Source of the DNA: Candidatus Aerophobetes bacterium Ae_b3a | Lineage (GTDB): Bacteria > Aerophobota > Aerophobia > Aerophobales > AE-B3A | Direction: 5' to 3' | DNA: 64,000 bases | NCBI GenBank assembly: GCA_005223095.1 | Contig: NJBQ01000001.1 | Span: 8,408-72,407 of the forward strand | Part shown: positions 12,510-55,670 of the stretch, piece after piece | How positions within the stretch are numbered: the first letter of the stretch is position 1 | How the letters are laid out: each line of letters opens with the position of its first letter | Position numbers and translations under genes: made by a program | Notes under the pieces: model-generated | Told to the model about the DNA's origin: nothing | The model's input: only the letters and a program-made list of their open reading frames with translations | Database searches by the model: none

Positions 12510-12884
12510 ATTAGTTGAGAGAGATTATTTAGCCTACACCAAACTTGACAAGCATACCTATTTGTCTTATACTACCAAATGATGAAGATAGACAAAGGTG
12601 AGCTTCTAGAGAAGCTAAGTCAGACAAATTTATGGCAAAACTTGTCTGCAGAAGAGGTTAGAGTATATCTGCTTCTCATAATCTGTGCTGATGAAATAAG
12701 TGGAAGGTTCTGATTTTAGTGAAGACTCAGGATATACCCTAATGAAATTTCTTCTGGGTAGAAGCAATCTTCCTACAGCAGGTGACAGTTTATAACTTGA
12801 GTTAAGAAGACGGATAATTTAGGGGTTAAGGAGCTAAAAATGAGGCCGGAGGGAGGTGAGAAGTAGGTAGACCATTAGCTGGGG
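12510..12884 (+). promoter_or_regulatory. conserved promoter-plus-leader element, copy A: TTGACA(12544-12549)-17-TATACT(12567-12572), then a ~300-nt conserved 5' leader for the downstream family-5 SBP operon
   Basis: Near-identical to the reverse complement of 47929-48312, which occupies the same position relative to the second SBP gene. Contains the dyad AGCTTCT-AG-AGAAGCT, the hairpin CAGACAA-N14-TTGTCTG and a purine-rich GGAGGGAGGTGAGAAG block. Confidence 0.6.
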
Positions 12885-12978: not shown

Positions 12979-14886
12979 ATGAAGAAAAGTTGGCTACTGG
13001 TGAGTTTTATCGTAGGCCTTAGTGTGGTTCTTCTGTCAAGCGTGGCGGCGTTCTCACAGCTTCCGCCGGGCATACCGCGACATGAAACGGTGATGATAGA
13101 TCAAATTTTTAGATACAGCGTTACTAATAACTTCAACCTCTGGACGCCAGGAGCAGGATCTACACCCACCAGACAGGGACTTGTATGCGATACCCTGTGG
13201 TATATAGACCAACAGACGGGTGAGTGGATCAACGCTTTAGCCAAAGAGCCACCCATTTACAGTGAGGATTTTACCAAAATGAGTGTGAAACTGAGGAAAG
13301 GAATCTACTGGAGCGACGGAGTCGAGTTCACGGCCGACGATGTTGTATTTACGGTTAAGAATCTAACCAGTCATCCTGCGATGATGTGGGGCACCGAACT
13401 CGAGCTCTATGTTGAGGATGTTCATAAGGTCGACGATTATACAGTTGTTTTTGAATTGACGAAGCCTTACTCGAGGTTTCACAATGTTTTCACTGCCCGG
13501 TATTACGCCGTCTACATCATGCCAAAACATATCTGGGAGAAAGTAGAAAAGCCTATGGAATTTACCTTTTATCCTCCTGTCTCTTTAGGCCCCTATATTC
13601 TGAAGGATGCAGATTCAGCAGGATACTGGGAACTTTTTGAAAGGAGAGAGGACTGGGAGAGAACAAGCGTTGGAAAAGTTACTGGCATGCCACCAGCACC
13701 AAAATATTTCCTGACTATTTTCTACGGTCCCAGTGAGAAGAAGGTTATGGCTATGTCAAAGCACGAGCTGGACTTGTTTATGAATGTCGATTATGAAGCT
13801 TTCAAGAGTCTCCTGGAAAAAGACTCCTATGCTCGTTCCTGGTACAAGGATTACCCGTGGGCATGGCCTGATGAACTTGATGGCAGACGGTTCGGCTTTA
13901 ACCTTGAGAAATTCCCCTACCATATAAAGGATGTTAGGTGGGCTTTGGCACTGGCCCTGGATATAGTAGATCTACAAACAGAATACCTCGGTGGAGTAAC
14001 TAGAGTTACTCCGATTCCCCAACCTGCAACTCCGTTCCACATGAAAAACTACCACAAGCCTCTGGAACCGTGGCTCAGGGAGTTCAAGATTGAGGCTGAG
14101 GAAGGCGTCTATTTCAAGCCCTACGATGAGACTGTGCCATATCAGATTGCCGAGTGGGCTAAAAAACAAGGATACTCAGTACCCAGCGAACCAGAAGATA
14201 TGAAAGATATGTTTGGTGTTGGATGGTGGAAGCACGCTCCCGACGTATCGGAGAAGCTACTCAAGAAGCATGGCTTCAAGAGGAATGCGCAAGGCAAATG
14301 GTTGCTTCCAGATGGTACTCTCTGGAAATTCAAAATTATAGCTGCACCCGATGAGGTAGATGTCTTTCGACTCGCACTTGGCGCTGTTGACCAGTGGAGA
14401 GAGTTCGGGATAGAGGTAGAGGTTTCGACACTGGAAAGGGATCCTTATTATACCTCTAACTCTCTGGGAGACTTCACTTGTACCTCTGCTTGGGGTGGTG
14501 CTTATACCGCTACGGCCGTACTGGATAAATGGCCGTTCATATACAGCTTCCATTCCAAGTTTTATAGACCAACTGGAGAGAGGTCGGTTTCGACTTTTAC
14601 CAATAGCGAGAGAATAAAATCTGAAGAACTTGACCGACTCATAGATGAGATGGAAAAGTTTCCTCCTAACGATCCGAAAACTCCGGAGCTGGTGAAGGAG
14701 TTTATGAAATTGTGGGTCGAGAATATGTGGTCGATCTGTACCGTTAGCTTCAAGAAATTCGTCACCCAAGATGAGTACTACTGGACTCACTTTCCCACCG
14801 CTGATGATCCATACGGGCAACCCTGCTACTGGTTCATGGGAGGTAGGTTCATACTCCCGCATCTTAAGGCTACGGGAAGAAAGTAG
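12979..14886 (+). CDS. ABC transporter substrate-binding protein, family 5 (DppA/OppA-type), secreted
   Basis: Signal peptide MKKSWLLVSFIVGLSVVLLSSVAAFSQ. 635 aa with family-5 SBP architecture. AGGAGG RBS. Confidence 0.85.
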   Translation: MKKSWLLVSFIVGLSVVLLSSVAAFSQLPPGIPRHETVMIDQIFRYSVTNNFNLWTPGAGSTPTRQGLVCDTLWYIDQQTGEWINALAKEPPIYSEDFTKMSVKLRKGIYWSDGVEFTADDVVFTVKNLTSHPAMMWGTELELYVEDVHKVDDYTVVFELTKPYSRFHNVFTARYYAVYIMPKHIWEKVEKPMEFTFYPPVSLGPYILKDADSAGYWELFERREDWERTSVGKVTGMPPAPKYFLTIFYGPSEKKVMAMSKHELDLFMNVDYEAFKSLLEKDSYARSWYKDYPWAWPDELDGRRFGFNLEKFPYHIKDVRWALALALDIVDLQTEYLGGVTRVTPIPQPATPFHMKNYHKPLEPWLREFKIEAEEGVYFKPYDETVPYQIAEWAKKQGYSVPSEPEDMKDMFGVGWWKHAPDVSEKLLKKHGFKRNAQGKWLLPDGTLWKFKIIAAPDEVDVFRLALGAVDQWREFGIEVEVSTLERDPYYTSNSLGDFTCTSAWGGAYTATAVLDKWPFIYSFHSKFYRPTGERSVSTFTNSERIKSEELDRLIDEMEKFPPNDPKTPELVKEFMKLWVENMWSICTVSFKKFVTQDEYYWTHFPTADDPYGQPCYWFMGGRFILPHLKATGRK

Positions 14887-25561: not shown

Positions 25562-25651
25562 ATTGCGTTAATTAACCCCTCACCTTAATCCTCTCCCCCA
25601 AGGGGAGAGGGAATTTCTTTTTTCGAGCAACGAATTTCGATTCACCATTCA

Positions 25652-26500
25652 CTAAATACTATTCACCATTTTAAGCTCTCTCAGTTTTTCTCCCACATTT
25701 TTACTTTTCAATAAGGCCTCTCCTATCAAAAAGGCATCTACTCCTGCTTCTTGGAGCCTGTAGATATCTTTTTTATTGTTAATTCCACTTTCACTGACTA
25801 CTACTCTATCCGAAGGTATCTTCTTTATAAGATTGAAACTCATCTTTAAATCTACTTTAAGATTTTCCAGATTCCTATTATTAATGCCCACAATATCAAC
25901 AGGAAGGTCTTTGATTTTTTGCCACTCTTCCTCAGCGTGAATTTCTACCAGACAGTCTAAATCCATTTGCCAGGCCAAATCTAGATATTCTTTTAACTTT
26001 TCTCTATCTAATATGCGAGCAATTAGGAGTAGAGCATCCGCTCCCCCGGTTCTAGCCTCATAAATTTGATACTCATCCACTATAAACTCTTTTGCCAGAA
26101 TGGGAAGGGAAGAGGCTTTCCTCGCCTTCTCTAAATCTTTAAGCTCTCCCTTAAAGAACTTCTGGTCAGTCAAAATAGATAGAGCTGAGGCGCCATTCTT
26201 CTCATAAATTCTGGCTAGTTCCTCTAAACTAAAATTTTTAATTATAACTCCAGCTGAAGGGGAGGCTCTCTTAATCTCAGCAATAATATTAATCTTTGTT
26301 GCAGAGGAGATAGCTTTCCTGAAGTTCCTGGTGGGAGTAGAAGCGGCTAGCTTCGATTTTAGGGCCGCCAATGGGACTTCTTTTTTTCGCCTGGCAACCT
26401 CTTTAAGCTTATTATTTACTATCTCATCTAAGATCAAAGTCGTTCCCCTCACCCCATCCCTCTCCCCACAGGGGAGAGGGCGCCATTTACCACTCACCAA
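25652..26500 (-). CDS. trpC: indole-3-glycerol phosphate synthase
   Basis: ILDEIVNNKLKEV..., IIAEIKRASPS, VDAFLIGEALLKS are IGPS blocks. Confidence 0.85.
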   Translation of the reverse strand: MVSGKWRPLPCGERDGVRGTTLILDEIVNNKLKEVARRKKEVPLAALKSKLAASTPTRNFRKAISSATKINIIAEIKRASPSAGVIIKNFSLEELARIYEKNGASALSILTDQKFFKGELKDLEKARKASSLPILAKEFIVDEYQIYEARTGGADALLLIARILDREKLKEYLDLAWQMDLDCLVEIHAEEEWQKIKDLPVDIVGINNRNLENLKVDLKMSFNLIKKIPSDRVVVSESGINNKKDIYRLQEAGVDAFLIGEALLKSKNVGEKLRELKMVNSI

Positions 26501-29712: not shown

Positions 29713-29880
29713 TAATTTGCCCCCTCACCCTACTCCCCCAAGGGGGGAGAGGGTGTTTTCTTTTCTTGCCAGTGACTAGCAAGTAGTGACAAGCGACGAA
29801 TTTTGAGGAATGTCCTTCGGTACAGATGCAAATTCCTCTGATTCAAGTAGATGTAGCTAGAGAGGAATAATAAGCAGAAC

Positions 29881-32681: not shown

Positions 32682-33665
32682 CTAATCTATCGGAGTAGTT
32701 TCTGGAATGAGGTACTTGAAGAACTTTGACTCCAGGGGCACTACAATGAGCGTCTTCTGGGTAAGAGTTTCTCGGTAAGTTTCTAAAGTTTTCAAAAAAT
32801 TGAAGAAGTCAGGGTCTTGCTCATAAGCTTGAGCATAGGTGGCGGTAGCTCTGGCATCTGCCTGTCCTTTTATCTCCTGGGCTTTTCGGTAAGCTTCTGA
32901 CCTTATCTGGGCCAGTTCCTTTTCCATCTCTCCTAAGATTTTAGCTCTCTCACCTTCTCCTTCCGACAAATACCTATTTGATATCCGATTCCTCTCAGCC
33001 TTCATTCTGGAAAAAACAGCATCAGTATTAGCTTTAGGAAGATCAGCCCTGGTGATTCTCACATCTATGATCTCTATTCCATATTGCCTGGTAACAGTAT
33101 CACTCTTTTTGGTGACATCTCTCATAATTTTCTCTCTGCCCGCCTCTATCTTTTCTATCTCTTCTCTTTCTCTTTTTCTCTCTTCTTCCCAGGTTACCTC
33201 GGTAGAGATGATTTCTCTATCAGATGTTCTTATGATTTCCATCATGTTATACTTACCCACCTCTTCCCTGAGCACAGAATAGATAATATCATCAAGTCGC
33301 GCGTAAGCTCCCACCTCGTTTCTGACCGTCTTCAGAAAGAGAAGGGGATCAACTATTCTCCATCGGGCATAGTTGTCAAGGAATATATACTTTTTGTCCT
33401 CAGTAACACATCTTCTGGCAGCAGCATCGTATTCCAGCAGTCGATCCTCAAATCTATTTACCTTCTGGACAAAGGGCTTTTTTATGTAAAGACCTGGTTT
33501 TTTAACTGTTTTTATGGGCCTTCCCAGCTCGGTAATGACTACCTGATTTATTTCATTGACAGTATAAACAGTGGAATTAAGCGTTAAAAGGCCTATTACT
33601 ACAATGATAATTTCCAGCAGCAGGTAATTACTTATTTTGGGAATGATATTTTTTTTAGTAGCCAT
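32682..33665 (-). CDS. hflC: HflC-like SPFH/band-7 membrane protease modulator
   Basis: N-terminal TM, an SPFH domain, and a C-terminal coiled coil rich in E/R/K. Immediately downstream of an HflK-like gene. Confidence 0.7.
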   Translation of the reverse strand: MATKKNIIPKISNYLLLEIIIVVIGLLTLNSTVYTVNEINQVVITELGRPIKTVKKPGLYIKKPFVQKVNRFEDRLLEYDAAARRCVTEDKKYIFLDNYARWRIVDPLLFLKTVRNEVGAYARLDDIIYSVLREEVGKYNMMEIIRTSDREIISTEVTWEEERKREREEIEKIEAGREKIMRDVTKKSDTVTRQYGIEIIDVRITRADLPKANTDAVFSRMKAERNRISNRYLSEGEGERAKILGEMEKELAQIRSEAYRKAQEIKGQADARATATYAQAYEQDPDFFNFLKTLETYRETLTQKTLIVVPLESKFFKYLIPETTPID

Positions 33666-33668
33666 ATC

Positions 33669-34607
33669 TTATCTCTTAGATGATTCCTCTAAACCTTTGT
33701 CTCTCAGATTCAAGAACTTCAAAAATCCTTCCTCAGCCTCTGAGATAACGATTTTTTCAATTTCTGGCAAAATGTTTCGCATTGTCTCTAGATAAAGCCT
33801 ATCTTTGGTTACCTGTTTTGCTTTTTTATATTCCTTTAGTCTTTGCAAGAATCTATTGGCGTCACCTTGAGCATGTTTTGTTCTTTCTACCGCGTATGCT
33901 TCTGCTTGTCTTATTGTTTTTTCTGCCTCACCCCTGGCTTTGGGGATTTCCTGATTATATTTTCCCAAAGCTTCATTGATAAACCGCTCTCTATCTTCTT
34001 TGGCACTGGCAACCCTTTCAAATGCCTCTTTTACCTCGCCGGGAGCATGAACATCTTGCAGTTTTACTGTAACTACATAAATACCACTTTTATATAGGTC
34101 CAGAATTTCCTGCAGTTTATTCGCTGTTACCTCCTGAATTTCTTCTCGTCCCACGGTTAAGGCTTCATCCACACCTCTATCTCCGATGGTTTGTCTCATG
34201 GCCGCCTCGGCAGCATTCTTTATGGTTTTTTTGACGTTTCTAACATTGAAAAGATAATCTCTGGCATCCTTGATTCTATATTGAACAATAAACCAGAGGT
34301 CAACTATGTTTATATCTCCTGTCAGCATTAAAGCTTCTTCTTCAATAGATTCATAAACGGCAGGGGGACCTGTGCTTATAGTTCTATAGCCAATTTCCAT
34401 CTTTTGAACCTTGGCTACTTGGGGCTTGTCTATTCTCTCCACCGGCCAGGGTATATGGTAATATATCCCCGGGCCTCTAGAAGCATAATATCTTCCCCAA
34501 CGTCGGACTATCCCTTCTTGTTCCGGGTGGACAATATAAATACCTGAGAGAACCCACAGGACTATAACAACTATGACTATTACCAATCCTATTCTTTTAC
34601 GATTCAT
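33669..34607 (-). CDS. hflK: HflK-like SPFH/band-7 protein
   Basis: MNRKRIGLVIVIVVIVLWVLSGIYIVHPEQEGIVRRWGRY is the typical HflK start. SPFH core and a coiled-coil tail. Confidence 0.7.
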   Translation of the reverse strand: MNRKRIGLVIVIVVIVLWVLSGIYIVHPEQEGIVRRWGRYYASRGPGIYYHIPWPVERIDKPQVAKVQKMEIGYRTISTGPPAVYESIEEEALMLTGDINIVDLWFIVQYRIKDARDYLFNVRNVKKTIKNAAEAAMRQTIGDRGVDEALTVGREEIQEVTANKLQEILDLYKSGIYVVTVKLQDVHAPGEVKEAFERVASAKEDRERFINEALGKYNQEIPKARGEAEKTIRQAEAYAVERTKHAQGDANRFLQRLKEYKKAKQVTKDRLYLETMRNILPEIEKIVISEAEEGFLKFLNLRDKGLEESSKR

Positions 34608-34664
34608 ACTTTCCCCTCACCCTTCCCTCTCCCCAGAGAGGAGAGGGCATACGATATACGAGTA

Positions 34665-36632
34665 TCATTTCATTATACCATAAGTGGTGAATATTCTCAA
34701 GACCTCGTTGGGTAATTCAGCTAAGCGGTCCCTTTTTATAATAACATAATCATCTATGAGAAATTTGGCACATTCTTCGTGCTCGGCTCCAATAACAAAC
34801 AGAAAAGGAAGAATTCCATCTTCTTGCAAGCTCTTGAAGCTCTCTCTTACATCCTGGGGAGTATCTGGCTCTCCATCAGTAATGATACAAAACCCCTTGG
34901 GCATGCCTTCAACCTCCCTCAGATTATCAGAAATGTATTTTATAGCATTGACCATCAAGGTACCTCCGTAAGGAGATAGGGACATTATTCTTCCTCTGTT
35001 TTCTTCACCATAATTTTCTTTAAAGTCTTTTATTGTATAGACTGTATCCTTATAATTCATTATTTCTCTGAATAAGATTCCCCCCGAATGGAAAGCAAAA
35101 ATGCCGAAAGGATAACCAGAATAGTTCAATGCCTCACCCTGTATCAATAAAGCATCCTTAATATAATCAATTATTCTATATCCAAATCCAAAAGCAGTAG
35201 AAGAACTTATATCTGCTAAAATAGCCCAGGCTGCCTTTTTTTTAATTCTGGCTCTCTTGCGGAACATCTTTTTATTTGGTCTTACCCCGGTAGCCTCATA
35301 TTCTAATTCTGCCTGGACGTATTCTCCTATGTTAATTTCCTCGCCGGCTCTAGCTTTCTTTTTTCCTCTATATCTTTCCTCTAATCTTTTAAAATAGCTC
35401 TCAATGGCTCTAATTTCTCCATTATATTTTTCTATTGTCTTATGAGCTTTCTCAATGTCGCTGCGGGAGCCCTGGGGTATGGCTATATTCACCCCTGGAC
35501 TTGGCTTGGGTACTATCTTTCTAAAATAACCACTGCCTATCCAATAGCTGAGCTTATCTTTTTCTGAAGCGGAGTCTATTTTCTGTTTCTCTTTCTCTTT
35601 CTGTCTTTTTCCCCTTCTATCTTGCTTTTCGCTCTCTTTTTCTTTCTTAAATCGAGGTTCTCTCTCTTTGTGTTCGCCTGGAATTGATTCCTCTGGCTGA
35701 TTTTTTTTTGCTTTTTTCTTTGGACTTATCTTTTTTTGCTGCTCTTTTTTGGCTGATGAAGCTTTTCTTTCTTTTCTATCCTGAACTGAAGGGTGCTTTT
35801 TACCCTCTTCCCTCCCTTCCCTTGGTTTTACAGAACCCTTATATTTCTTGGGAAGACCTGGACTCATCCTACTATGGCCCCTGCCAGCAAAGGGAGGAAG
35901 TTGTCTCATAGGCTGCTTGATATCAAAATTTTCCTTGAATTTGACATATATTTTTTCTGTTGCTTCTAAAGAGACATGAATATCCTTATTTTCTGCACTT
36001 CGCGCTATACTTACACATTCATTTAAGAGATTATTGTACTGAGGAGGAACCTCATCAATAGTCTCATCAAGCAAAGTCTTTTGCAGAAAAAATTCCCTGA
36101 AAGCACTTAACCCCTTTTTCTTTTTCATTAAGTATTTGGGACTGGGTCTTCTATTAAGATAGATACGTTTTTCTTTCTCCTTAGAAAAACGCGCCAGTCC
36201 AGGTAGCTCTCCCCTGGCTTTACGGTCTATTCTATTATCTTCCACTATATTAAAGATTTCATGGGCCAGGGTAGGATTCTCCTTAAATTTTTCCCTTAAG
36301 AAAAAGTCCTCCAGGAATCGATTTATCGATTTAGGGTCGTATTCTTTATCAGGATGGAACTCTTGATTTAGTTTGATAAATTCCTTTATATGGTCTGATT
36401 CGTGCCTTACGGCACTGGCAATCATAATTTCATTATCAGGATCAGTAAGAGCAAGCTTAAACTGAGTGGGTAGGTGTATCTTTTCTCCGTCAGTATAAAT
36501 AGCCGGACCAGAAATGAGAGGGAGAAAGGTTTTCTTATCAAAAACGAGCCGGTGTCTTTCACTAGCTCCATCCTCTATTCTAAAGTCTATAACCCTTTTT
36601 AACTCTGGTTCTATCTTTTGGCAGAGAGCCAT
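34665..36632 (-). CDS. large protein with a C-terminal von Willebrand factor A domain (CbbO/NorD-like partner of a MoxR-type ATPase); N-terminal region carries an HExxH motif; central K/E-rich low-complexity linker
   Basis: C-terminal vWA with MIDAS-like ILADISSST (DxSxS) and CIITDGEPD. N-terminal SAVRHESDHIKEF (HExxH). Residues ~260-340 are lysine/glutamate repeats (KKEQQKKISPKKKAKKNQPEE...). Confidence 0.6.
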   Translation of the reverse strand: MALCQKIEPELKRVIDFRIEDGASERHRLVFDKKTFLPLISGPAIYTDGEKIHLPTQFKLALTDPDNEIMIASAVRHESDHIKEFIKLNQEFHPDKEYDPKSINRFLEDFFLREKFKENPTLAHEIFNIVEDNRIDRKARGELPGLARFSKEKEKRIYLNRRPSPKYLMKKKKGLSAFREFFLQKTLLDETIDEVPPQYNNLLNECVSIARSAENKDIHVSLEATEKIYVKFKENFDIKQPMRQLPPFAGRGHSRMSPGLPKKYKGSVKPREGREEGKKHPSVQDRKERKASSAKKEQQKKISPKKKAKKNQPEESIPGEHKEREPRFKKEKESEKQDRRGKRQKEKEKQKIDSASEKDKLSYWIGSGYFRKIVPKPSPGVNIAIPQGSRSDIEKAHKTIEKYNGEIRAIESYFKRLEERYRGKKKARAGEEINIGEYVQAELEYEATGVRPNKKMFRKRARIKKKAAWAILADISSSTAFGFGYRIIDYIKDALLIQGEALNYSGYPFGIFAFHSGGILFREIMNYKDTVYTIKDFKENYGEENRGRIMSLSPYGGTLMVNAIKYISDNLREVEGMPKGFCIITDGEPDTPQDVRESFKSLQEDGILPFLFVIGAEHEECAKFLIDDYVIIKRDRLAELPNEVLRIFTTYGIMK

Positions 36633-36641
36633 CTTAAATCC

Positions 36642-38081
36642 TCAACCTTTTATTCTCTTATTAACCCTTTCCATCAATTTCTTGTATAATGTCTGGTCAC
36701 TTTCATAGGTTGACTTGGGATTAAGCATATACACCTCTATCAGCTTTCTTAGCGACTGTTTGCTGGCTAAAGATGCCTGGCAAACCTCCACCGCTCCCCT
36801 TAAACCCATATCTTTCTTGTAGCTGGCCAGAATATTTCTGAAATCAAAAATAAGTTCGGTGATGAGAGTAGCCATTTTCTCATCCAGTCCCGCTGCTCTT
36901 GACATAAGTATATCAATGGTACCCTCTTTGTCAGGATAAATCAATTTAATCTGAGCCCATCTTTCTAAGAAGGCATCACTCAGTTCAATAGGTGTATATC
37001 TGGAATCCAGATTACCCGAGGAAATCATTTTGAAATTGTCTGCTCCTTCAATAACCTCAAAACCATATTGAGACTGAATAGTTAGCTTTTTATCGTCCAG
37101 GACACCGTGTAGGCCATAGAGGACGCCTGGATCCACCGGACCTATTTCCTCAAAATAGAAGATACCATTATGAACCATAGCCAGACTCAAAGCGCCGGGT
37201 GCCTTTATAGGTTTAGGGTCGGCCGGAACCCAGGAGCCTATTATATCATCCATGCTCGTTTCTCTATTGCCTGTGGGAGCCATATAAAAAGGTATATTAT
37301 TTATATGAGCATACCATTTAATCATAGTGCTCTTGCCACATCCAGTAGGACCATTTAGTAAAATAGGTTTTCCCTTGTCCGCCAGTTCACAAAATGTCTC
37401 CCATTCACCTTGTTGATCTATATACTCTATAGCTTCCTTCACTCTATTCACAGGATAGTGCGAAAGAATAAAATTACTATATTTTCCTTCTTCTATATCC
37501 TCTACCCCTTCTAAGGATTCGATAGATTTAGTTTTTTTATTCTTTAGAACATCTAATAATTTATCCAGAACAACCAAAGAAAGAAAGTCAGTATGAGCAA
37601 ACTCTGGCTCAAGTTCCAGAAGGCCTCTGATTTTCTTTTTCCGGCGGAAAAGATAATAATTTCCTATCACTATATTTCTTTTTATATCATATCCCTTAAA
37701 AAAACCATTCTTTTCTAGCCTTTCTCTGCGTCTTTTACCCAGGTCATTCTTATTAATGGTGATTATTTCATAGTTGTTAGAAGGAGATTTAAGAATAGCT
37801 CTCTTTTTATCTTTAAAGGAGAGAAGTGTGGTTTTATTTTGGCTGATGGTTCTTAAGTGGTAATCTTCTAAAGGATAATTTTCTGCTATCCAGGCTCCTA
37901 ATTTACCTATCCTTTTGCGAGTTGTCCCTTCAATCAAACTTATATTGTAATAGACAGGAAGATAGATTTCTCTTTGCAGGGGAACAAAATCTACTTTTAT
38001 TATCTTCCCGGGTATAACAGGCGTGAGCAAAGCACTTTCCTGCTCTTTATCTTTCTTGAATTCCACTATGTATCTGTTCAT
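36642..38081 (-). CDS. AAA+ ATPase of the MoxR/CbbQ/GvpN (AAA_5-like) type with a ~225-aa N-terminal extension
   Basis: Walker A LLNGPTGCGKST, Walker B-like GIFYFEEIG, then an arginine-rich sensor region. The extension begins MNRYIVEF.... Overlaps the upstream gene by 4 nt. Confidence 0.65.
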   Translation of the reverse strand: MNRYIVEFKKDKEQESALLTPVIPGKIIKVDFVPLQREIYLPVYYNISLIEGTTRKRIGKLGAWIAENYPLEDYHLRTISQNKTTLLSFKDKKRAILKSPSNNYEIITINKNDLGKRRRERLEKNGFFKGYDIKRNIVIGNYYLFRRKKKIRGLLELEPEFAHTDFLSLVVLDKLLDVLKNKKTKSIESLEGVEDIEEGKYSNFILSHYPVNRVKEAIEYIDQQGEWETFCELADKGKPILLNGPTGCGKSTMIKWYAHINNIPFYMAPTGNRETSMDDIIGSWVPADPKPIKAPGALSLAMVHNGIFYFEEIGPVDPGVLYGLHGVLDDKKLTIQSQYGFEVIEGADNFKMISSGNLDSRYTPIELSDAFLERWAQIKLIYPDKEGTIDILMSRAAGLDEKMATLITELIFDFRNILASYKKDMGLRGAVEVCQASLASKQSLRKLIEVYMLNPKSTYESDQTLYKKLMERVNKRIKG

Positions 38082-39052
38082 TTATCTTTCTCTTCTTTAT
38101 CCTCTTTTCCCCAGATTCTATCGAAGTCCGCCTCTTCTCCTGTTTTCTGTGGTTCTTCTATCTCCATACGCCATATATCCATATCTTCTTCTTTGGGCTC
38201 TGTTCCATTAATAATATAATTAGAAAAGGCAAATGAGTTCTGGTAGGTTCCTCTGTATCCAATAATAATGGCCTTAAGATTCTCAGATTTTTCAAAGGAT
38301 TGAGCTATTGGCTCCCACTCTCTGGATAGTCTTTTTTCTTCTTGCAGGAGGCGTTGGCTTAAATAAGATTTTCTTTCTACCTTGGGTGTCTTATTAAATT
38401 CTTCCTCTATCTTTTTCAGCTTGATACTCTTCTTTTTAAAGTAAGCTAACAATCCTTTATCCAGGGATAGATATTTACGGAAAAAGCGTCTTTCGGCAGG
38501 ATAAGCACCTATCTGAAAGAAAGGAGAGGTAAATTTACCTAGGTCAGCTAGCCAGGGAACTATCACTCCACAAATAACATCGCCAAAAACGAAATAGAAC
38601 CCCCCCAGCACCGCAGTGATTTTAGGAGTGGAGTAAGTACTGGCGATAACTGCCCATCCAATTATTTCTGTTAAGATACCATATTTCATAGCTCGCTCAA
38701 TAGCATACTTTCTTAATTTTTGTACTTCTTCTTGTTGAACAGGATTAATTTTTATTCTACCACCTCTAAATTCCTTTTCAAAACCATTGGTCAAATATCG
38801 GATGAAGTCTTCCTTTCTATTTCTGATGTTTATTTCAAGAAGATATTTTATCCTTTCAGTCAGAACTTTAAAGTGTTGGTAGCTTCTTTCCCTATCCTGG
38901 TATTCAATCAGTACTATAGCATTACAATCACTGTCATTTCCATAGATTCTTGATTGAAGCTCGAGCTGATTTCTTACTTCGAAGAATCTGCCATCCAGAT
39001 ATACTCCAATCCCTTTACCTAACTCATCATCAAGCTCTTTTATTCTCATCAC
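38078..39052 (-). CDS. hypothetical membrane protein (two central TM helices), part of the AAA+/vWA operon
   Basis: 324 aa. Hydrophobic pair GILTEIIGWAVIASTYSTPKITAVLGGFYFVFGDVICGVIVPWLADL. Acidic C-terminus. 4-nt overlaps on both sides. Confidence 0.4.
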   Translation of the reverse strand: MMRIKELDDELGKGIGVYLDGRFFEVRNQLELQSRIYGNDSDCNAIVLIEYQDRERSYQHFKVLTERIKYLLEINIRNRKEDFIRYLTNGFEKEFRGGRIKINPVQQEEVQKLRKYAIERAMKYGILTEIIGWAVIASTYSTPKITAVLGGFYFVFGDVICGVIVPWLADLGKFTSPFFQIGAYPAERRFFRKYLSLDKGLLAYFKKKSIKLKKIEEEFNKTPKVERKSYLSQRLLQEEKRLSREWEPIAQSFEKSENLKAIIIGYRGTYQNSFAFSNYIINGTEPKEEDMDIWRMEIEEPQKTGEEADFDRIWGKEDKEEKDK

Positions 39053-39603
39053 TGAGCACCGATAAATATCCTGATAAATTCTTGTTCAAAGACTCTTCTA
39101 GAAATGGCCAGGGGAATAAAGCGGAGAAGTTCTTCTATGCCAGTTGATATTTTTGTCTTTACCCGCATAAGAGTTGATATGTTTCTGCCTTTCTTAAAAC
39201 AGTAAATTCTTCCTTTTATCTCTCTGTCATCAAACACATAGGAATGAGTTAATCCTGACTTTTCTAGCTTTTCCCCCGCCTTTTTTTGTTCCTGAAGTAT
39301 TGTTTCCTCCTTGGATAGCTTAGCAAAGGAGAGATAAAGACCATCAATCCGTAGTCTCCCTTCCTTTTCCAAATAGGCAATTTCCTCTCTTTTGTTGTCA
39401 TATACCTTGATGCCACTCCTGGCAGGATAAAATGTCTCCAGGTAGCCTTTTATTCCTTGCGGAGTCTTTACTTCCAGCACTAGAGGTAGCTTCTTTTCTT
39501 TTAGGATAAAGTCGCCATCTATATAACCCAGCAGTCTGCTATCTTTCTCTATCTTTAGTAGGTGCGTTCTATTTTGGTTGGTTCTAATGATATATCGGTT
39601 CAT
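39049..39603 (-). CDS. hypothetical protein (184 aa), first gene of the AAA+/vWA operon
   Basis: Starts MNRYII, sharing the MNRYI start with the AAA+ protein's N-terminal extension. No recognisable catalytic motif. Confidence 0.4.
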   Translation of the reverse strand: MNRYIIRTNQNRTHLLKIEKDSRLLGYIDGDFILKEKKLPLVLEVKTPQGIKGYLETFYPARSGIKVYDNKREEIAYLEKEGRLRIDGLYLSFAKLSKEETILQEQKKAGEKLEKSGLTHSYVFDDREIKGRIYCFKKGRNISTLMRVKTKISTGIEELLRFIPLAISRRVFEQEFIRIFIGAQ

Positions 39604-39689
39604 TAAATCGTCGCCATTCTCGTATTGCGTCGTGCGTGATGCGTATTGCGCAATATGAAATACGAAAAGCGTAAATATTCACCGAACGA

Positions 39690-39790
39690 CGTCATTGCGA
39701 GCGCAAGCGAAGCAATCTCATTCTTCATCAGAGATTGCCACGTCGTCCTGAAGGCTTTCAGGACTCCTCGCAATGACAGAAAGAAACGTA
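39690..39790 (+). repeat. multi-hairpin intergenic repeat element (module F), full copy: outer arms GTCATTGCGAG/CTCGCAATGAC enclosing hairpins GCAATCTCAT..AGAGATTGC and GTCCTGAA-ggct-TTCAGGAC
   Basis: Nested inverted repeats read directly from the sequence. A homologous copy lies at 23628-23730, with partial copies at 12222-12252 and 59375-59410 in reverse orientation. Confidence 0.55.
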
Positions 39791-40112
39791 TTTCACTGAG
39801 CATTTACCGAAAAGCGAACAAAGTGAAGCAATCTCAATGAGGTATTGGATATTCAATGTTCTTTTTGGTGTGAAGACTATTTTTCTGTCGCTCAGTCTTG
39901 TATTAGGGGAAAGTTGTTCAGTGTAGGGAATGGCCAGTCCTGTTTTCTACATAACTCTTAGGCTAAAAGGCGCGCATACTGTTTCTTTGCTTCTTTTTTC
40001 TCAGCCCCTCTTCTTTTAGGTTATTTTATTATTTTGTGAACACTCTACATTCATTATATACATTATAACGGCATTGTAAAGGGGAGAAAACGAATCTTTT
40101 AAAATTTACAAA

Positions 40113-45790: not shown

Positions 45791-47851
45791 TTATTTCTCC
45801 TCATAGGTTGGAATTACCCCCGGGAGAAGTTCAGGCTTTTGCTCCTCCTTGGGAACCCAAAGCTGCCATGCACATTGAGCCACATCGAACCATTCATACA
45901 TGTAAGGTGGAGTACCGGGTGGAACGTTCCTCAGTCTATTGGCAATTGCATTACCCACCTGCATCTTATAGAGGCCAATCGTGTAAACGTTTTCAGTCCA
46001 TAAATTTTGAATTTCTGAGAATGTTTCCCTTACCTTTGAACCAGATCTCTCAGTTTTTAGTGAGTTTATCAGATCTCTTAAGCGAGCCTCAAAGGGAAAT
46101 AGGTCTCTTTCCCCCCCTGGTCCAGCCTGGTGCCAGGTAGGAGTAATCTCGGTTACAGGCCCAAGGTCGGTTAATCTTGTCAGGGGAGTAAGACACAACA
46201 CATTATCACGATATATAGGTATCTCAAGTTCTCCACTGTCGGATAGAGCATCGTAAGTTGTGGTCTTGATGACTTTAAGAACAGACTTAATACCAGCTTC
46301 CCTAAGGTAGGGAACTAAGGCCTCTCCTAAGTTCACGGCTGCGGTTTCGTCTTCAACGATATGGATTACAAGGGTTAAATCCTGACCAGCTAATGGAGTA
46401 CCTGTAGCCCACTCCATTATACCATCGCCATCGATGTCCTTAAATCCCAGCTCTGCAAACAAACCTTTTGATTTTTCCAGATCATAAGCATAGGTGACGA
46501 TAGCATCGGGATCATAATATGGAGAAGAGTCAACCAGACTACCTTCATACGGTGCAATTAGAGGTCCTGGGAAAATTGAGTTTGTTATTCCCTCCCGGTT
46601 AATGGCGTAGGATAAAGCTTTTCTAAACCTGGGATCTCTGAATAACTCTCTCATGGCTCGGTCTCTCTCCGTCTTCACCCCTTTGTAAAGTGAAAAATTT
46701 GGCTGCAAACTAAACGAAGCGTTATAACCCACAAATCGAGCCACAAAGTAGGAGTCTGACCTCCGTGCTTCTTCCAGGGCAAAAGAGAAAACCCCCGGTG
46801 TTTCTAGGTTGGTATAATCAATACTTCCGGCTATCACATTTAAGGTTCTGGTTATCCCTCTTCTTCCCTTTTCAATATAAGCCTCGTTAAAATAGGGAAG
46901 TTGTTGTCCTTTCTCATCCACCTTCCAGTAGTAAGGATTTCTCCTGGCCACTATGAATCTTGCCGGTTCGAATTTTACTGGCACCCAAGGACCGAGCGTT
47001 ACCACCGGAAGATCCTCAGGAGGTAGGGAATGAATGAAGCCTTCGTAAGTAGCATCTGGATTGTATTTTGGATGATGCTTTGCTAGAACATGCTTGGGAA
47101 CTGGTGCCAAACCGTAGCGGCCCATGCGGAAAAGAATGTATAGAGGGAAGCCTGCCCCAAAACGCCACCTGATGGTATACTTATCTACCTTTTCCAGTTC
47201 GGTTAATTTTCCGTTTATTGTCCATGCGCCCGCGCCGAGGAAGGAAGGAATATGGGAATCTAAATGGCAGTCGTAATATGTAAACAGGACATCATCAGCC
47301 GTGAATTCCACTCCATCCGACCACTTTGCTCCTTCAAGCAGATGCATGGTAAGGGTCTTGCCATCTTCGGACCATTCCCAACTGGTAGCTAAGTTTGGTA
47401 CAGGTTCAATGGGATTTTTTAGCATCCACATATGGGCGGGTTCCACCAGGCCTTCCCAGACAAGCACCTCGGTGCCCCACCAACCTGATGTTAATCCTGC
47501 TGCCCAGTTCCAGCCCGCGGTTGGAGACCCACAAAAGACCCTCCACTTATCACCATATACCCCTAGGCCGTCACTCATAACCTTAGACTTTATAACCTGG
47601 GGGTTCTTGGGCAATCTCTCCCACACTGGGGGAAGTTCCCCTTTGGCCACTGCCAACTCTAATGCCTCAGGTTCGATATAGTTCGGGAGGGCCTTGTACT
47701 CCATAATGTCACTGATTTCGAACTTGCCTAAAAAGCTCTCCTGAGCGATAGCCACTGCACTAAACGAGGCGATGAACATAAGCGCTATTAATATTGGCAT
47801 AACTCTCTTCATCTTAACCTCCGGAAAAACATATTTTCTTGCGTCATACAT
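45791..47851 (-). CDS. ABC transporter substrate-binding protein, family 5 (DppA/OppA-type), secreted
   Basis: Signal peptide MKRVMPILIALMFIASFSAVAIA. 686 aa. Paralogous to the SBP at 12979 but strongly diverged at the protein level. Confidence 0.85.
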   Translation of the reverse strand: MYDARKYVFPEVKMKRVMPILIALMFIASFSAVAIAQESFLGKFEISDIMEYKALPNYIEPEALELAVAKGELPPVWERLPKNPQVIKSKVMSDGLGVYGDKWRVFCGSPTAGWNWAAGLTSGWWGTEVLVWEGLVEPAHMWMLKNPIEPVPNLATSWEWSEDGKTLTMHLLEGAKWSDGVEFTADDVLFTYYDCHLDSHIPSFLGAGAWTINGKLTELEKVDKYTIRWRFGAGFPLYILFRMGRYGLAPVPKHVLAKHHPKYNPDATYEGFIHSLPPEDLPVVTLGPWVPVKFEPARFIVARRNPYYWKVDEKGQQLPYFNEAYIEKGRRGITRTLNVIAGSIDYTNLETPGVFSFALEEARRSDSYFVARFVGYNASFSLQPNFSLYKGVKTERDRAMRELFRDPRFRKALSYAINREGITNSIFPGPLIAPYEGSLVDSSPYYDPDAIVTYAYDLEKSKGLFAELGFKDIDGDGIMEWATGTPLAGQDLTLVIHIVEDETAAVNLGEALVPYLREAGIKSVLKVIKTTTYDALSDSGELEIPIYRDNVLCLTPLTRLTDLGPVTEITPTWHQAGPGGERDLFPFEARLRDLINSLKTERSGSKVRETFSEIQNLWTENVYTIGLYKMQVGNAIANRLRNVPPGTPPYMYEWFDVAQCAWQLWVPKEEQKPELLPGVIPTYEEK

Positions 47852-47928: not shown

Positions 47929-48312
47929 CCTCATACCCCAGCTAACGACTTACTTGCTTCTCACCTCCCTCTGGCCTTATTTTTAGCTCTTTAACCCTTA
48001 AATTATCCGTCTTCTTAACTCAAGTTATAAACTGTCTCCTGCGGGAGGTCGAGCCGTCCAGTCTCTCATTATAAGCTTTTCCCCCAGCAGCACCTTTTTT
48101 GGCGTCCCTCTATCCTTCCACTTATTTCATCAGCGCAGATTATGAGAAGCAGATATACTCTAACCTCTTCTGCAGACAAGTTTTGCCATAAATTTGTCTG
48201 ACTTAGCTTCTCTAGAAGCTCACCTTTGTCTATCTTCATCACTTAACAGTATAAGATAAATAGGTATGCTTGTCAAGTCTCGTGTAGGCTAAATAATCTC
48301 TCTCAACTAATT
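47929..48312 (-). promoter_or_regulatory. conserved promoter-plus-leader element, copy B (minus orientation): -35 TTGACA at 48276-48271, 17-nt spacer, -10 TATACT at 48253-48248, then a ~300-nt conserved leader
   Basis: Reverse complement aligns with 12510-12884 at roughly 95% identity in two blocks, separated by a ~75-nt non-homologous central segment. Confidence 0.6.
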
Positions 48313-55499: not shown

Positions 55500-55670
55500 C
55501 TCGGACAATTTTCTTCCGTCACCATTCTCGTATCTCGTTGTTCGTATCTCGTATCTAGTGTAACGTATTGCACTATGCTTTTTAAAGCCTTTTTTCGAGA
55601 TACGAGATACTAGATACGATTCACGTTTCTTCAAGGAATGTCCTTCGGCAAACGTATAAGTTCCTAATAC
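55500..55670 (+). repeat. composite intergenic repeat between hslV and hslU: TCACCATTC, CGTATCTCG units as an imperfect long inverted repeat, and a GGAATGTCCTTCGG module
   Basis: The arms CGTATCTCGTATCTAGTG and CGAGATACGAGATACTAGATACG flank a T-rich centre. GGAATGTCCTTCGG also occurs at 29803-29817. CGTATCTCG also occurs at 31673-31683. Confidence 0.5.

What the first reader, a model, noticed from the sequence alone, without database searches (positions are those of the whole stretch)
34665..39603. Tight four-gene operon: small protein, membrane protein, CbbQ/MoxR-type AAA+ ATPase with a novel N-terminal domain, and a large HExxH-containing vWA protein, bracketed by repeat elements
Four minus-strand genes are joined by 4-nt overlaps or a 9-nt gap at 39603-39049, 39052-38078, 38081-36642 and 36632-34665. 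The ATPase has Walker A GPTGCGKST, as in the CbbQ/NorQ/GvpN branch, but carries a ~225-aa N-terminal extension. That extension starts MNRYI, exactly like the 184-aa first gene, which hints at a duplicated domain. The 655-aa partner ends in a vWA domain with MIDAS residues DISSS. This is the CbbO/NorD arrangement used by MoxR-vWA remodelling pairs. It additionally has an N-terminal HESDH (HExxH) motif and an ~80-aa lysine/glutamate low-complexity linker. The membrane protein could be the client or anchor. The operon is flanked by a GC-palindrome at 34626-34648 and the multi-hairpin element at 39690-39790. There are no neighbouring genes such as Rubisco or NO reductase that would explain a canonical client. 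This fits the pattern of uncharacterised MoxR-vWA modules, some of which are proposed to act in conflict or defense. No specific defense-system family is recognised.
Basis: partly seen in the sequence, partly recalled or inferred. Interest (0 to 1): 0.7.

Follow-up and report, generated by a model that had tools for sequence, protein, structure and literature searches.

The report
NorQ/NorD-like AAA+ chaperone with extra domain
This is a rare, undescribed variant of the NorQ/NorD-type ATP-driven protein-remodelling pair. Its motor carries an extra N-terminal domain that also exists as a separate small protein, and in this lineage it always sits next to a membrane protein and the membrane quality-control genes hflK/hflC. 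It looks like a housekeeping membrane-associated chaperone with an unknown client, not a phage-defence system.

Summary

The 184-aa protein (p1) is a paralogue of the ATPase's ~180-aa N-domain (hhalign 97.4%, E 1.4e-11). That domain has no Pfam or PDB sequence relatives.

The family is tiny: about 26 ATPases among 5.8 billion proteins. It occurs only in Aerophobetes, Nealsonbacteria-like CPR bacteria and DPANN-like archaea, always as p1+p3+p4. In Aerophobetes the conserved unit has six genes, p1-p2-p3-p4-hflK-hflC, and keeps this order despite at least four different flanks. So the downstream "bracketing" palindrome lies inside the unit and is one copy of a dispersed repeat.

HExxH(xxE) is conserved in most lineages but absent in one, and its fold is unresolved. 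Nothing supports defence: no PADLOC hits, no effectors, no viral or plasmid relatives, core-genome setting.

Best reading: a membrane-associated NorQD-like remodeller with an unknown client.

The parts
40053..40080 (-). Best sigma-70-like promoter candidate for the operon (TTTACA-16-TATAAT), about 450 nt upstream of p1
   Evidence: 11 of 12 matches. This is a consensus match only. The number of promoter-like sites in the region is not above the shuffled expectation.
39604..39830 (-). Putative 5' leader containing the nested-hairpin repeat element (outer stem GUCAUUGCGAG/CUCGCAAUGAC enclosing two hairpins)
   Evidence: MFE -71.9 kcal/mol, z -2.6. The adjacent 38-mer at 39609-39646 has a second copy at 55517-55554. 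No Rfam match.
39049..39603 (-). p1: 184-aa free-standing paralogue of the ATPase N-terminal domain, a core component of the system
   Evidence: hhalign of the p1 family against the p3 N-domain gives 97.4% probability, E 1.4e-11, 162 columns end to end; the control against the AAA+ part gives 0.16%. There are 22 real clusters at 50% identity among 1.84 billion representatives. No Pfam or PDB relatives. dN/dS 0.09.
38078..39052 (-). p2: 324-aa membrane protein found only in Aerophobetes; candidate anchor or client
   Evidence: 9 orthologues, 54-70% identity. No Pfam, NCBIfam or PADLOC hit. Not homologous to the accessory proteins of the CPR or DPANN versions.
38558..38677 (-). p2 hydrophobic hairpin region (residues 126-165). 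The strong transmembrane segment is 147-165, with the invariant motif GFYFVFGD.
   Evidence: Kyte-Doolittle 2.11; invariant columns; translation.
38105..38203 (-). p2 acidic C-terminal tail with two invariant tryptophans (EPKEE-LD-W-R-EIEEP...DFD--W)
   Evidence: E285, P286, E289, D292, W294, E306, D309, F310 and W314 are invariant. Its similarity to the NPW...IPK...NPWE tails of the CPR accessory proteins holds only at regex level and was not recovered by an HMM trained on the CPR tails.
36642..38081 (-). p3: 479-aa MoxR-class AAA+ ATPase of the NorQ/CbbQ type with an extra N-terminal domain
   Evidence: Pfam AAA_5, E 6.7e-12. PDB phmmer hits NorQ at 1e-14 and CbbQ at 2e-11. The top 21 Foldseek hits are all NorQ or CbbQ, TM-score on target 0.75-0.86. 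Model pLDDT 81.8.
37542..38081 (-). p3 N-terminal domain (residues 1-180): beta-rich, family-specific, homologous to p1
   Evidence: pLDDT 78-94; conserved L41 P42 V43 G59 W64 G126 R135 R152 F166.
37326..37352 (-). Walker A GPTGCGKST. Walker B FYFEE is at 37140-37166. Sensor 1 N357, Arg finger R374 and sensor 2 R428 are all invariant.
34665..36632 (-). p4: 655-aa NorD-like protein (helical N-terminal domain, disordered linker, finger plus vWA)
36381..36404 (-). HESDHIKE (HExxHxxE) in the long helix 65-92 of the p4 N-terminal domain
   Evidence: It is conserved as HE[SA]DHIxE in Aerophobetes, two CPR lineages and two archaeal-like loci. In Nanoarchaeota L017 it is replaced by CYQRKRYQE. Only H77 and E84 are invariant once distant 1036-aa relatives are included.
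35511..35912 (-). Disordered K/E/R-rich linker (residues 241-374), variable in length between orthologues; positional equivalent of the essential NorD linker
   Evidence: (pLDDT 25-42), and (NorD linker 242-393 unresolved; its deletion abolishes function).
35199..35213 (-). MIDAS DxSxS (D474, S476, S478); completed by T558 and D586
   Evidence: (invariant in all orthologues and in distant relatives).
34620..34648 (.). GC-rich palindrome between p4 and hflK; one of four dispersed copies in the window; not a terminator-like site
   Evidence: copies at 25584, 26453, 29724 and 34620; z -2.2, no U-tract, followed directly by the hflK ribosome-binding site.
33669..34607 (-). hflK equivalog; part of the conserved six-gene block in Aerophobetes
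   Evidence: NCBIfam TIGR01933, 270.7 bits against a cutoff of 159.4. Synteny.
32682..33665 (-). hflC equivalog; part of the conserved six-gene block in Aerophobetes
   Evidence: NCBIfam TIGR01932, 240.8 bits against a cutoff of 134.4. Synteny.

Best explanation
The locus encodes an undescribed sub-family of the NorQ/NorD (CbbQ/CbbO) type MoxR-vWA remodelling machine. It most likely works on a membrane-associated client as a housekeeping function.

**Shown:**
- p3 has a complete, NorQ/CbbQ-like AAA+ module.
- p4 has the NorD plan: N-terminal domain, long disordered linker, finger plus vWA with an intact MIDAS.
- p1 is a free paralogue of p3's extra N-terminal domain.
- p1, p3 and p4 travel together in three very distant lineages.
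- In Aerophobetes they are locked to the membrane protein p2 and to hflK-hflC.

**Inferred from the solved NorQD structures:**
- A p3 hexamer grips the p4 finger in its pore.
- ATP hydrolysis rotates the vWA/MIDAS head relative to the p4 N-terminal domain and stretches the K/E linker.
- This pulls on a target held through an acidic residue at the MIDAS and through the N-terminal domain.

**Inferred from anatomy only:**
- The extra N-domain on each ring subunit, and its free copy p1, are docking or specificity modules. They would bind p4 or a partner's tail.
- p2 either tethers the machine to the membrane through its conserved acidic two-tryptophan cytoplasmic tail or is itself the client.
- The job belongs to membrane-protein maturation or quality control, possibly including metal delivery by the HExxHxxE site.
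For: **AAA+ module.**
- Pfam AAA_5; PDB sequence hits to NorQ and CbbQ.
- Foldseek top 21 hits are all NorQ or CbbQ, then a 1000-fold E-value gap to dynein.
- All catalytic motifs are invariant.

**p4.**
- The model shows a helical N-terminal domain, a 134-aa disordered linker and a vWA domain. This is the layout reported for NorD in PMC13036017.
- MIDAS is invariant.

**p1 and the p3 N-domain.**
- hhalign 97.4%, E 1.4e-11, with a negative control at 0.16%.
- Reciprocal weak BLAST hits.

**Co-occurrence of the core.**
- Aerophobetes, CPR, Nanoarchaeota and other archaeal-like contigs.
- p4 and p1 are adjacent with 2-8 nt gaps in every non-Aerophobetes locus.

**Membrane and quality-control context.**
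- p2 transmembrane segment and invariant tail.
- hflK/hflC equivalogs.
- The six-gene block is intact across at least four different upstream and at least four different downstream contexts. In L015, p4 and hflK overlap by 4 nt.
- Peptidase-type neighbours occur in other lineages: an M16 peptidase inside the CPR locus L029, and a conserved ~300-aa HExxH membrane protein after p1 in L104 and L189.

**Housekeeping character.**
- dN/dS 0.06-0.26; core-genome neighbours.
Against: - No client has been identified.
- The hflKC link is seen only in Aerophobetes, and a promoter-like site inside the end of p4 (34700-34672) could drive hflKC separately.
- p2 has no homologue in the CPR or DPANN versions.
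- The proposed shared 'W-tail' is a post hoc regex-level resemblance. An HMM trained on the CPR tails did not recover it.
- The fold and ligand of the N-domain are unknown, because fold searches were dominated by the AAA+ and vWA domains.
- Sequence homology of the p4 N-terminal domain to the NorD N-terminal domain is not significant (domain 1 score -3.6).
- The peptidase neighbours rest on one or two contigs each.
Confidence: 0.5

Rival explanations
1. AAA+-coupled proteolysis or peptide processing: a 'split FtsH-like' machine. The p4 N-terminal domain would be an active HExxH zincin. The p3 ring, working through p4, would present membrane proteins for cleavage. Candidate substrates are p2 in Aerophobetes and the small tail-bearing proteins in CPR. 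HflKC would modulate the machine as it does FtsH.
For: - HE[SA]DHIxE is strikingly conserved across lineages that share only 27-36% overall identity.
- It lies in a helix preceded by two short strands.
- Linkage to hflK/hflC, the FtsH modulators.
- An M16 peptidase is embedded in the CPR locus, and an extra HExxH membrane protein follows p1 in two archaeal-like loci.
- The Nealsonbacteria locus has four adjacent small proteins with different bodies and one shared C-terminal peptide. This resembles the metallopeptidase-plus-precursor peptide-processing modules that accompany some MoxR-vWA systems (PMC7159879).
Against: - The Nanoarchaeota orthologue lacks HExxH but keeps an intact ATPase and MIDAS.
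- Distant relatives keep only H77 and E84.
- No match to any peptidase family in Pfam or PDB, even at E up to 10.
- The modelled domain is almost all helical.
- NorQ-type rings are described as twisting a bound finger rather than threading substrates.
Confidence: 0.15
2. A dedicated metal-insertion chaperone, strictly analogous to NorQD (Fe), for an unidentified metalloprotein encoded elsewhere. H77/H81/E84 of p4 would act as a metal relay site. p2 and HflKC would be neighbours only.
For: [quoted passage not shown]
- H77 and E84 are invariant even in distant relatives.
- The closest solved relative of both proteins is the NorQD pair.
Against: - No metalloenzyme gene is conserved next to the system in any lineage.
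- p2 has no invariant His or Cys.
- The rearrangement-resistant linkage to p2 and hflKC would be left unexplained.
Confidence: 0.15
3. An anti-phage or conflict system of the MoxR-vWA type.
For: - Some MoxR-vWA modules are proposed conflict systems (PMC7159879).
- The phyletic distribution is patchy, suggesting horizontal transfer.
- The family is rare.
Against: - No PADLOC family beyond weak P-loop matches.
- No VMAP or iSTAND partner, and no effector domain C-terminal to the vWA, which ends the protein.
- No relatives carrying the N-domain in 2.9 million viral contigs. None in plasmids.
- Single copy in a core housekeeping neighbourhood.
- Strict vertical conservation with hflKC in one phylum and strong purifying selection.
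- Presence in reduced CPR and DPANN genomes next to tRNA synthetases, ribosomal proteins and EF-1alpha.
Confidence: 0.05

Closest known systems
NorQ/NorD (nitric-oxide reductase maturation chaperone; structures 9qh4-9qhg, PMC13036017)
   Same: - The AAA+ module is the best structural and sequence match.
- p4 shares the full NorD plan: N-terminal domain of about 240 aa, a ~130-150 aa unresolved or disordered linker, then finger plus vWA with MIDAS.
- The two genes are adjacent and translationally close.
   Different: - The ATPase carries a ~225-aa N-terminal extension absent from NorQ (about 270 aa).
- A free paralogue of that domain is an obligatory third component.
- No nor genes are nearby.
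[quoted passage not shown]
- The Pfam CbbQ_C domain is not recorded for any family member, whereas plain CbbQ-like hits have it.
- Hosts are Aerophobetes, CPR and DPANN.
CbbQ/CbbO Rubisco activase (5c3c, 6l1q)
   Same: - Same AAA+ sub-class.
- Same pairing of ATPase with a vWA/MIDAS adaptor.
- The distant ~1036-aa vWA proteins that align over 81% of p4 look like long versions of the same adaptor.
   Different: No Rubisco or carboxysome genes nearby. p4 is much shorter than typical CbbO. The N-domain and p1 are extra.
Rea1/Midasin AAA ring plus MIDAS domain
   Same: Strongest phmmer hit for the AAA+ module (5e-21, summed over several AAA domains). Second-best fold match for the vWA domain. A finger or loop in the pore is the proposed common docking mode.
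   Different: A eukaryotic single-chain giant acting in ribosome biogenesis. Related at class level only.
VMAP / iSTAND MoxR-vWA ternary conflict systems (Kaur et al. 2020, PMC7159879)
   Same: A three-component logic: a MoxR ATPase, a vWA protein and a third family-specific protein.
   Different: The third component here is a paralogue of the ATPase's own N-domain, not VMAP-C or iSTAND. The vWA protein has no C-terminal effector. Gene order differs. No mobile or variable context.
FtsH-HflKC membrane quality-control complex
   Same: The parts list matches in outline: a membrane anchor, an AAA+ ring, an HExxH-bearing polypeptide, and hflK/hflC in one conserved cluster.
   Different: The AAA+ module is MoxR class, not classical AAA. 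There is no M41 peptidase domain. The components are separate proteins. Protease activity is unproven. The resemblance is functional speculation only.

Membership tests
MoxR-class AAA+ ATPase, CbbQ/NorQ/GvpN branch | AAA_5-type AAA+ domain with intact Walker A/B, sensor 1, arginine finger and sensor 2 | tested here: met
   Pfam AAA_5, E 6.7e-12. GPTGCGKST, FYFEE, N357, R374 and R428 are invariant across 18 homologues.
MoxR-class AAA+ ATPase, CbbQ/NorQ/GvpN branch | Closest solved structures are NorQ or CbbQ rather than other AAA+ clades | tested here: met
   Foldseek ranks 1-21 are all NorQ or CbbQ (E 1.5e-15 to 2.6e-11, TM-score on target 0.75-0.86). The next hit is dynein at 1.4e-8.
MoxR-class AAA+ ATPase, CbbQ/NorQ/GvpN branch | Helix-2 insert and pre-sensor-1 beta-hairpin | tested here: inconclusive
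   The model shows strands 282-285/292-295 in the invariant GSWVPADPKPIKAPG stretch and a hairpin at 332-345. I did not superpose these on NorQ residue by residue.
MoxR-class AAA+ ATPase, CbbQ/NorQ/GvpN branch | Compact ~260-280-aa single-module protein with the Pfam CbbQ_C domain (PF08406) | tested here: not met
   p3 is 479 aa with a 225-aa N-terminal extension. Precomputed Pfam for all 26 family members lists PF07728 only, whereas the plain CbbQ-like hits list PF08406 plus PF07728. The NCBIfam GvpN hit is far below its cutoff (40.5 against 266.8 bits).
NorD/CbbO-type vWA adaptor | C-terminal vWA domain with a complete MIDAS (DxSxS...T...D) | tested here: met
NorD/CbbO-type vWA adaptor | N-terminal domain, long flexible linker, then finger plus vWA | tested here: met
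   AlphaFold model compared with the NorD description in PMC13036017. The profile match starts at the pre-vWA helices (p4 391-581 against NorD 394-577).
NorD/CbbO-type vWA adaptor | Encoded next to its client's genes (nor or cbb clusters) | tested here: not met
   No such genes occur in the window, in 12 Aerophobetes loci or in the CPR and DPANN loci.
NorD/CbbO-type vWA adaptor | Physical finger-in-pore complex with the cognate ATPase hexamer | not testable with these tools
   This needs multimer modelling or biochemistry.
VMAP/iSTAND MoxR-vWA conflict systems | VMAP-C or iSTAND third component, plus variable effector domains C-terminal to the vWA domain | tested here: not met
   The vWA domain ends the protein. 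The third component is an N-domain paralogue. PADLOC finds nothing specific. Family definition taken from PMC7159879.
Zincin metallopeptidase (for the p4 N-terminal domain) | HExxH in a helix plus a third zinc ligand, in a zincin fold, conserved across the family | tested here: inconclusive
   HExxHxxE is present in helix 65-92 and conserved in 5 of 6 lineages, but absent in L017. No peptidase family is hit at E up to 10. A domain-only fold comparison was not possible.
HflK/HflC (downstream genes) | NCBIfam equivalog score above the curated cutoff | tested here: met
   TIGR01933 scores 270.7 against a cutoff of 159.4. TIGR01932 scores 240.8 against 134.4.

The most novel reading that the evidence does not exclude
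The four parts form a self-contained membrane-protein processing machine built on the MoxR/vWA chassis:
- an AAA+ ring whose dedicated N-domains, and their free copy p1, capture the conserved C-terminal tails of small membrane proteins;
- a NorD-like arm whose HExxH domain is an active zincin that cleaves or matures those proteins.

In effect this would be a split, FtsH-like AAA protease, regulated by HflKC in Aerophobetes. It would be shared, through ancient transfer, with ultra-small CPR bacteria and DPANN archaea.
Probability: 0.12. Interest if true: 0.75.

Novelty: new variant of a known kind. Interest (0 to 1): 0.5.

Why it matters
MoxR-vWA pairs are widespread, but only a handful have a known client: Rubisco, NO reductase, CO dehydrogenase, chelatases, LdcI/Frd.

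- **A new domain on the motor.** This sub-family adds a folded N-terminal domain to the motor and keeps a free copy of it. That arrangement recalls the adaptor-binding N-domains of Cdc48 or ClpX (my own comparison, not tested here). I found no description of it in the papers searched.
- **A testable context.** The fixed linkage to a membrane protein and to hflK/hflC in Aerophobetes gives a concrete membrane-quality-control hypothesis.
- **An odd distribution.** The family occurs only in Aerophobetes plus reduced-genome CPR and DPANN lineages.
- **A possible new function.** If the HExxH domain proves catalytic, it would be a new way of coupling an AAA+ ring to proteolysis.

If none of this holds, it is simply one more orphan NorQD-like chaperone.

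Tried and rejected
- **Profile search with the p4 N-terminal domain (A3).** It returned only 3 near-identical fragments although orthologues exist, so it said nothing about distant relatives.
- **Structure prediction with locus-derived orthologues.** p4 was therefore modelled with a 21-sequence alignment of allowed proteins, giving pLDDT 66.
- **afdb50 fold library.** Unavailable.
- **PDB fold searches.** They were dominated by the vWA and AAA+ domains. Neither the p3 N-domain nor the p4 N-terminal domain could be classified.
- **Sequence searches of the p1 family and the p4 N-terminal domain against PDB and Pfam at lax thresholds.** Only noise.
- **The idea that all lineages share a C-terminal 'NPW...IPK...W' tail on the accessory membrane protein.**
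  - A post hoc regex hits 26 of 801 ORFs in family loci, all next to the system, against 1 of 2758 ORFs in unrelated loci.
  - An HMM trained only on the CPR tails did not rank Aerophobetes p2 in its top 40.
  - I keep it as a lead, not a finding.
- **Homology of p2 to the CPR and DPANN accessory proteins.** Rejected; hhalign gives below 1%.
- **Defence.** Rejected.
- **Repeats as mobile-element boundaries.** Rejected. They are dispersed repeats, and the palindrome lies inside the conserved block.
- **Rfam.** No RNA family in the region or in the window.
- **P0087, an apparent multi-copy p1 relative.** It is the translation of a tandem repeat, not a family member.

Full report
**Observation.** There are two 4-nt overlaps and one 9-nt gap. 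Translation of the stated sub-ranges gives GPTGCGKST, FYFEE, HESDHIKE and DISSS. All four genes are under purifying selection: dN/dS against a 98%-identical relative is 0.09, 0.26, 0.06 and 0.17. The window is ordinary core chromosome, with a trp operon, rpsI, hslUV, topA and several ABC transporters. GC content over the operon is 0.37-0.39 against about 0.41 for the window.

**The ATPase.** Pfam sees only AAA_5, at residues 240-374.
- Against PDB sequences the best single-domain matches are NorQ (1e-14) and CbbQ (2e-11). Midasin scores higher only because several of its AAA modules add up.
- The AlphaFold model, built from 18 sequences, has pLDDT 81.8.
- Foldseek places NorQ or CbbQ chains at ranks 1-21, with about 260 aligned columns and TM-score on target of 0.75-0.86. 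The next hit is dynein, with an E-value 1000 times worse.
- Walker A and B, sensor 1 (N357), the arginine finger (R374) and sensor 2 (R428) are invariant.
- Residues 1-180 form a confidently predicted, mostly beta domain that aligns to nothing in the PDB hits.
- Family members lack the Pfam CbbQ_C domain that ordinary CbbQ-like hits carry.

**The vWA partner.** Pfam misses it in the window protein, but other evidence is clear.
- phmmer and a 10-sequence profile hit NorD (9qhd_G) at 8e-8 and 2.8e-19 over p4 residues 391-591.
- The model (pLDDT 66) shows a helical N-terminal domain at 1-240, a disordered stretch at 241-374, then helices and a vWA fold.
- This is the architecture reported for NorD: N-terminal domain 1-241, unresolved linker 242-393 whose deletion abolishes function, and a finger that enters the NorQ pore (PMC13036017).
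- The 'K/E low-complexity linker' is therefore the family's functional linker, and it is about 130 aa long, not 80.
- The MIDAS residues D474, S476, S478, T558 and D586 are invariant in every orthologue and in distant ~1036-aa relatives.

**The duplication.** The shared 'MNRYI' start is not a coincidence.
- Pairwise BLAST is weak but collinear.
- Cross-hits appear between p1 and the N-termini of other lineages' ATPases.
- A profile-profile comparison of 26 p1-family sequences with the N-terminal 195 residues of 18 ATPases gives 97.4% probability, E 1.4e-11, over 162 columns end to end.
- The same p1 profile against the AAA+ half gives 0.16%.
- The p1 family has no Pfam or PDB sequence relatives. 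It comprises only 22 genuine clusters at 50% identity among 1.84 billion representatives.

**Distribution and context.** Only 26 full-length relatives of p3 were found among 5.8 billion proteins. About 21 of them, at 67-99% identity, come from Candidatus Aerophobetes-type MAGs, some labelled 'Clostridia' by their submitters. Five, at 39-42%, come from Nealsonbacteria-like CPR bacteria. The next hits are plain CbbQ proteins at about 25%. Genome and metagenome scans added a Nanoarchaeota contig and a few more CPR and archaeal-like contigs. p1, p3 and p4 occur together in every contig long enough to tell.
- Aerophobetes: p1-p2-p3-p4.
- CPR: p4-p1-(small membrane protein)-p3.
- Archaeal-like: (accessory)-p3-(small)-p4-p1.
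- p4 and p1 are separated by 2-8 nt outside Aerophobetes.

In Aerophobetes the conserved unit is larger than the finding. The two downstream genes score above the curated cutoffs for HflK and HflC. The block p1-p2-p3-p4-hflK-hflC is intact in all loci that reach far enough, while both flanks change at least four times. The p4-hflK spacer ranges from a 4-nt overlap to about 275 nt. The GC palindrome at 34620-34648 therefore lies inside the unit. It is one of four dispersed copies in the window, has no U-tract, and is followed directly by the hflK ribosome-binding site. The upstream hairpin element is likewise a dispersed-type repeat sitting in a 509-nt intergenic leader.

**The HExxH motif.** HE[SA]DHIxE is conserved in Aerophobetes, two CPR lineages and two archaeal-like loci. 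These lineages share only 27-36% overall identity, so the conservation implies constraint. However:
- The Nanoarchaeota orthologue has CYQRKRYQE at that position while keeping its ATPase and MIDAS motifs intact.
- Distant relatives keep only H77 and E84.
- NorD has AHASDR at the weakly aligned position.
- No peptidase family is matched, even at E up to 10.
- The modelled domain is almost entirely helical.

I could not run a domain-only fold search, so whether this is a zincin, a metal-relay site or a structural motif stays open.

**Accessory proteins.** p2 has one strong transmembrane segment (147-165, invariant GFYFVFGD) after a weaker hydrophobic stretch. It also has an invariant acidic C-terminal tail with two tryptophans.
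- In the Nealsonbacteria locus, four neighbouring small proteins have unrelated bodies, three of them membrane-spanning, and all end in almost the same 30 residues: NPWEPVDIPKEK...INPWEKK.
- A second CPR lineage has one such membrane protein.
- A loose regex covers these tails and the p2 tail, and is nearly absent from 2758 control ORFs. But an HMM trained on the CPR tails alone does not find p2, and p2 is not homologous to any of these proteins.
- The robust statement is that each lineage pairs the core with small, mostly membrane-anchored proteins bearing a conserved cytoplasmic C-terminal tail. That the tails are equivalent is a hypothesis.
- Peptidase-type neighbours recur: hflKC in Aerophobetes, a bona fide M16 peptidase inside one CPR locus, and a conserved ~300-aa GHxFHExLHY membrane protein after p1 in two archaeal-like contigs. 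Each of the last two rests on very few contigs.

**Mechanism.** This part is inferred by homology with the NorQD structures.
- The p3 hexamer holds the p4 finger in its pore.
- ATP-driven subunit stepping rotates the vWA head against the p4 N-terminal domain and stretches the linker.
- The MIDAS holds an acidic residue of the target.

What is specific here is the ring of six extra N-domains and the free copy p1. The duplication predates the split of the three lineages, and p4 and p1 are usually translationally coupled. I therefore think p1 and the N-domain bind the same kind of partner: either the p4 N-terminal domain or a tail of the accessory protein. On that view they act as docking or specificity modules. 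The conserved linkage to p2 and HflKC places the Aerophobetes version at the cytoplasmic face of the membrane, in maturation or quality control of a membrane protein. The client is not identified.

**Defence.** Nothing supports it.
- PADLOC gives only weak P-loop matches.
- PHROGs matches only the phage CobS-like AAA module.
- Viral contigs contain no relative carrying the N-domain, and plasmids give no match.
- The vWA protein has no effector domain, and the system lacks the VMAP or iSTAND components that define the known MoxR-vWA conflict systems.

**Verdict.** It is wrong or unsupported on defence and on the meaning of the repeats, and it missed hflKC. The locus is a new variant of a known kind: a NorQD/CbbQO-type remodeller with a new domain, a free paralogue of that domain and a membrane context, restricted to a few unusual lineages. 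Interest is moderate (0.5). It would rise substantially if the HExxH domain proves catalytic or if the tail-capture model holds.

Noticed in passing
window 12510-12884 and 47936-48311: Two adjacent inverted-repeat segments (198 nt at 96% and 113 nt at 88% complementarity) lie 35 kb apart. Each sits just upstream of an ABC-transporter substrate-binding-protein gene (12979-14886 on the plus strand; 45791-47851 on the minus strand). This looks like a duplicated 5' leader or regulatory region. There is no Rfam match.
   Followed up: partly
window 25584-25612, 26453-26481, 29724-29752, 34620-34648: A dispersed family of GC-rich palindromes (CCCTCTCCCC-loop-GGGGAGAGGG) sits in intergenic spacers of minus-strand operons, including inside the trp operon region. 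The elements are REP-like.
   Followed up: partly
window 39609-39646 and 55517-55554; also 55535-55619: A 38-nt CGTATT/CGT-rich repeat upstream of p1 has a 76% copy upstream of hslV/hslU, where it forms its own inverted repeat. The nested-hairpin core at 39690-39790 is single-copy in the window.
   Followed up: partly
L001 5794-7120 and 9600-10004 (Candidatus Nealsonbacteria): Four small proteins (103, 165, 156 and 134 aa; three with transmembrane segments) surround the MoxR-vWA genes. All end in nearly the same tail, NPWEPVDIPKEK...INPWEKK. This suggests a shared recognition tag on otherwise unrelated proteins.
   Followed up: partly
L104 1846-2760 and L189 942-1814: A conserved ~300-aa protein (29% identity, E 9e-29) follows p1 in two archaeal-like contigs. 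It carries a GHxFHExLHY (HExxH) motif and a hydrophobic C-terminus and has no Pfam family. It may be an uncharacterised membrane metallopeptidase.
   Followed up: partly
L029 3963-5264 (also the start of L028): A bona fide M16 (insulinase-type) peptidase gene is inserted between the tail-bearing membrane protein and the ATPase gene in one CPR lineage.
   Followed up: partly
window 34672-34700 (minus strand): A strong promoter-like site (TTGAGA-17-TATAAT with an extended TG) lies inside the last codons of p4. It could give hflK-hflC their own transcript.
   Followed up: no
L007, L008, L009, L012, L015 (record titles): Several MAGs carrying 70-98%-identical copies of this operon are labelled 'Clostridia bacterium' in their records, while others are labelled Candidatus Aerophobetes. 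The labels are probably inconsistent for one lineage.
   Followed up: no
P0087 / P0098 (hits of the p1 search): An apparent 281-419-aa 'relative' of p1 on megabase contigs is the translation of a ~73-aa tandem repeat. It is not a family member.
   Followed up: yes
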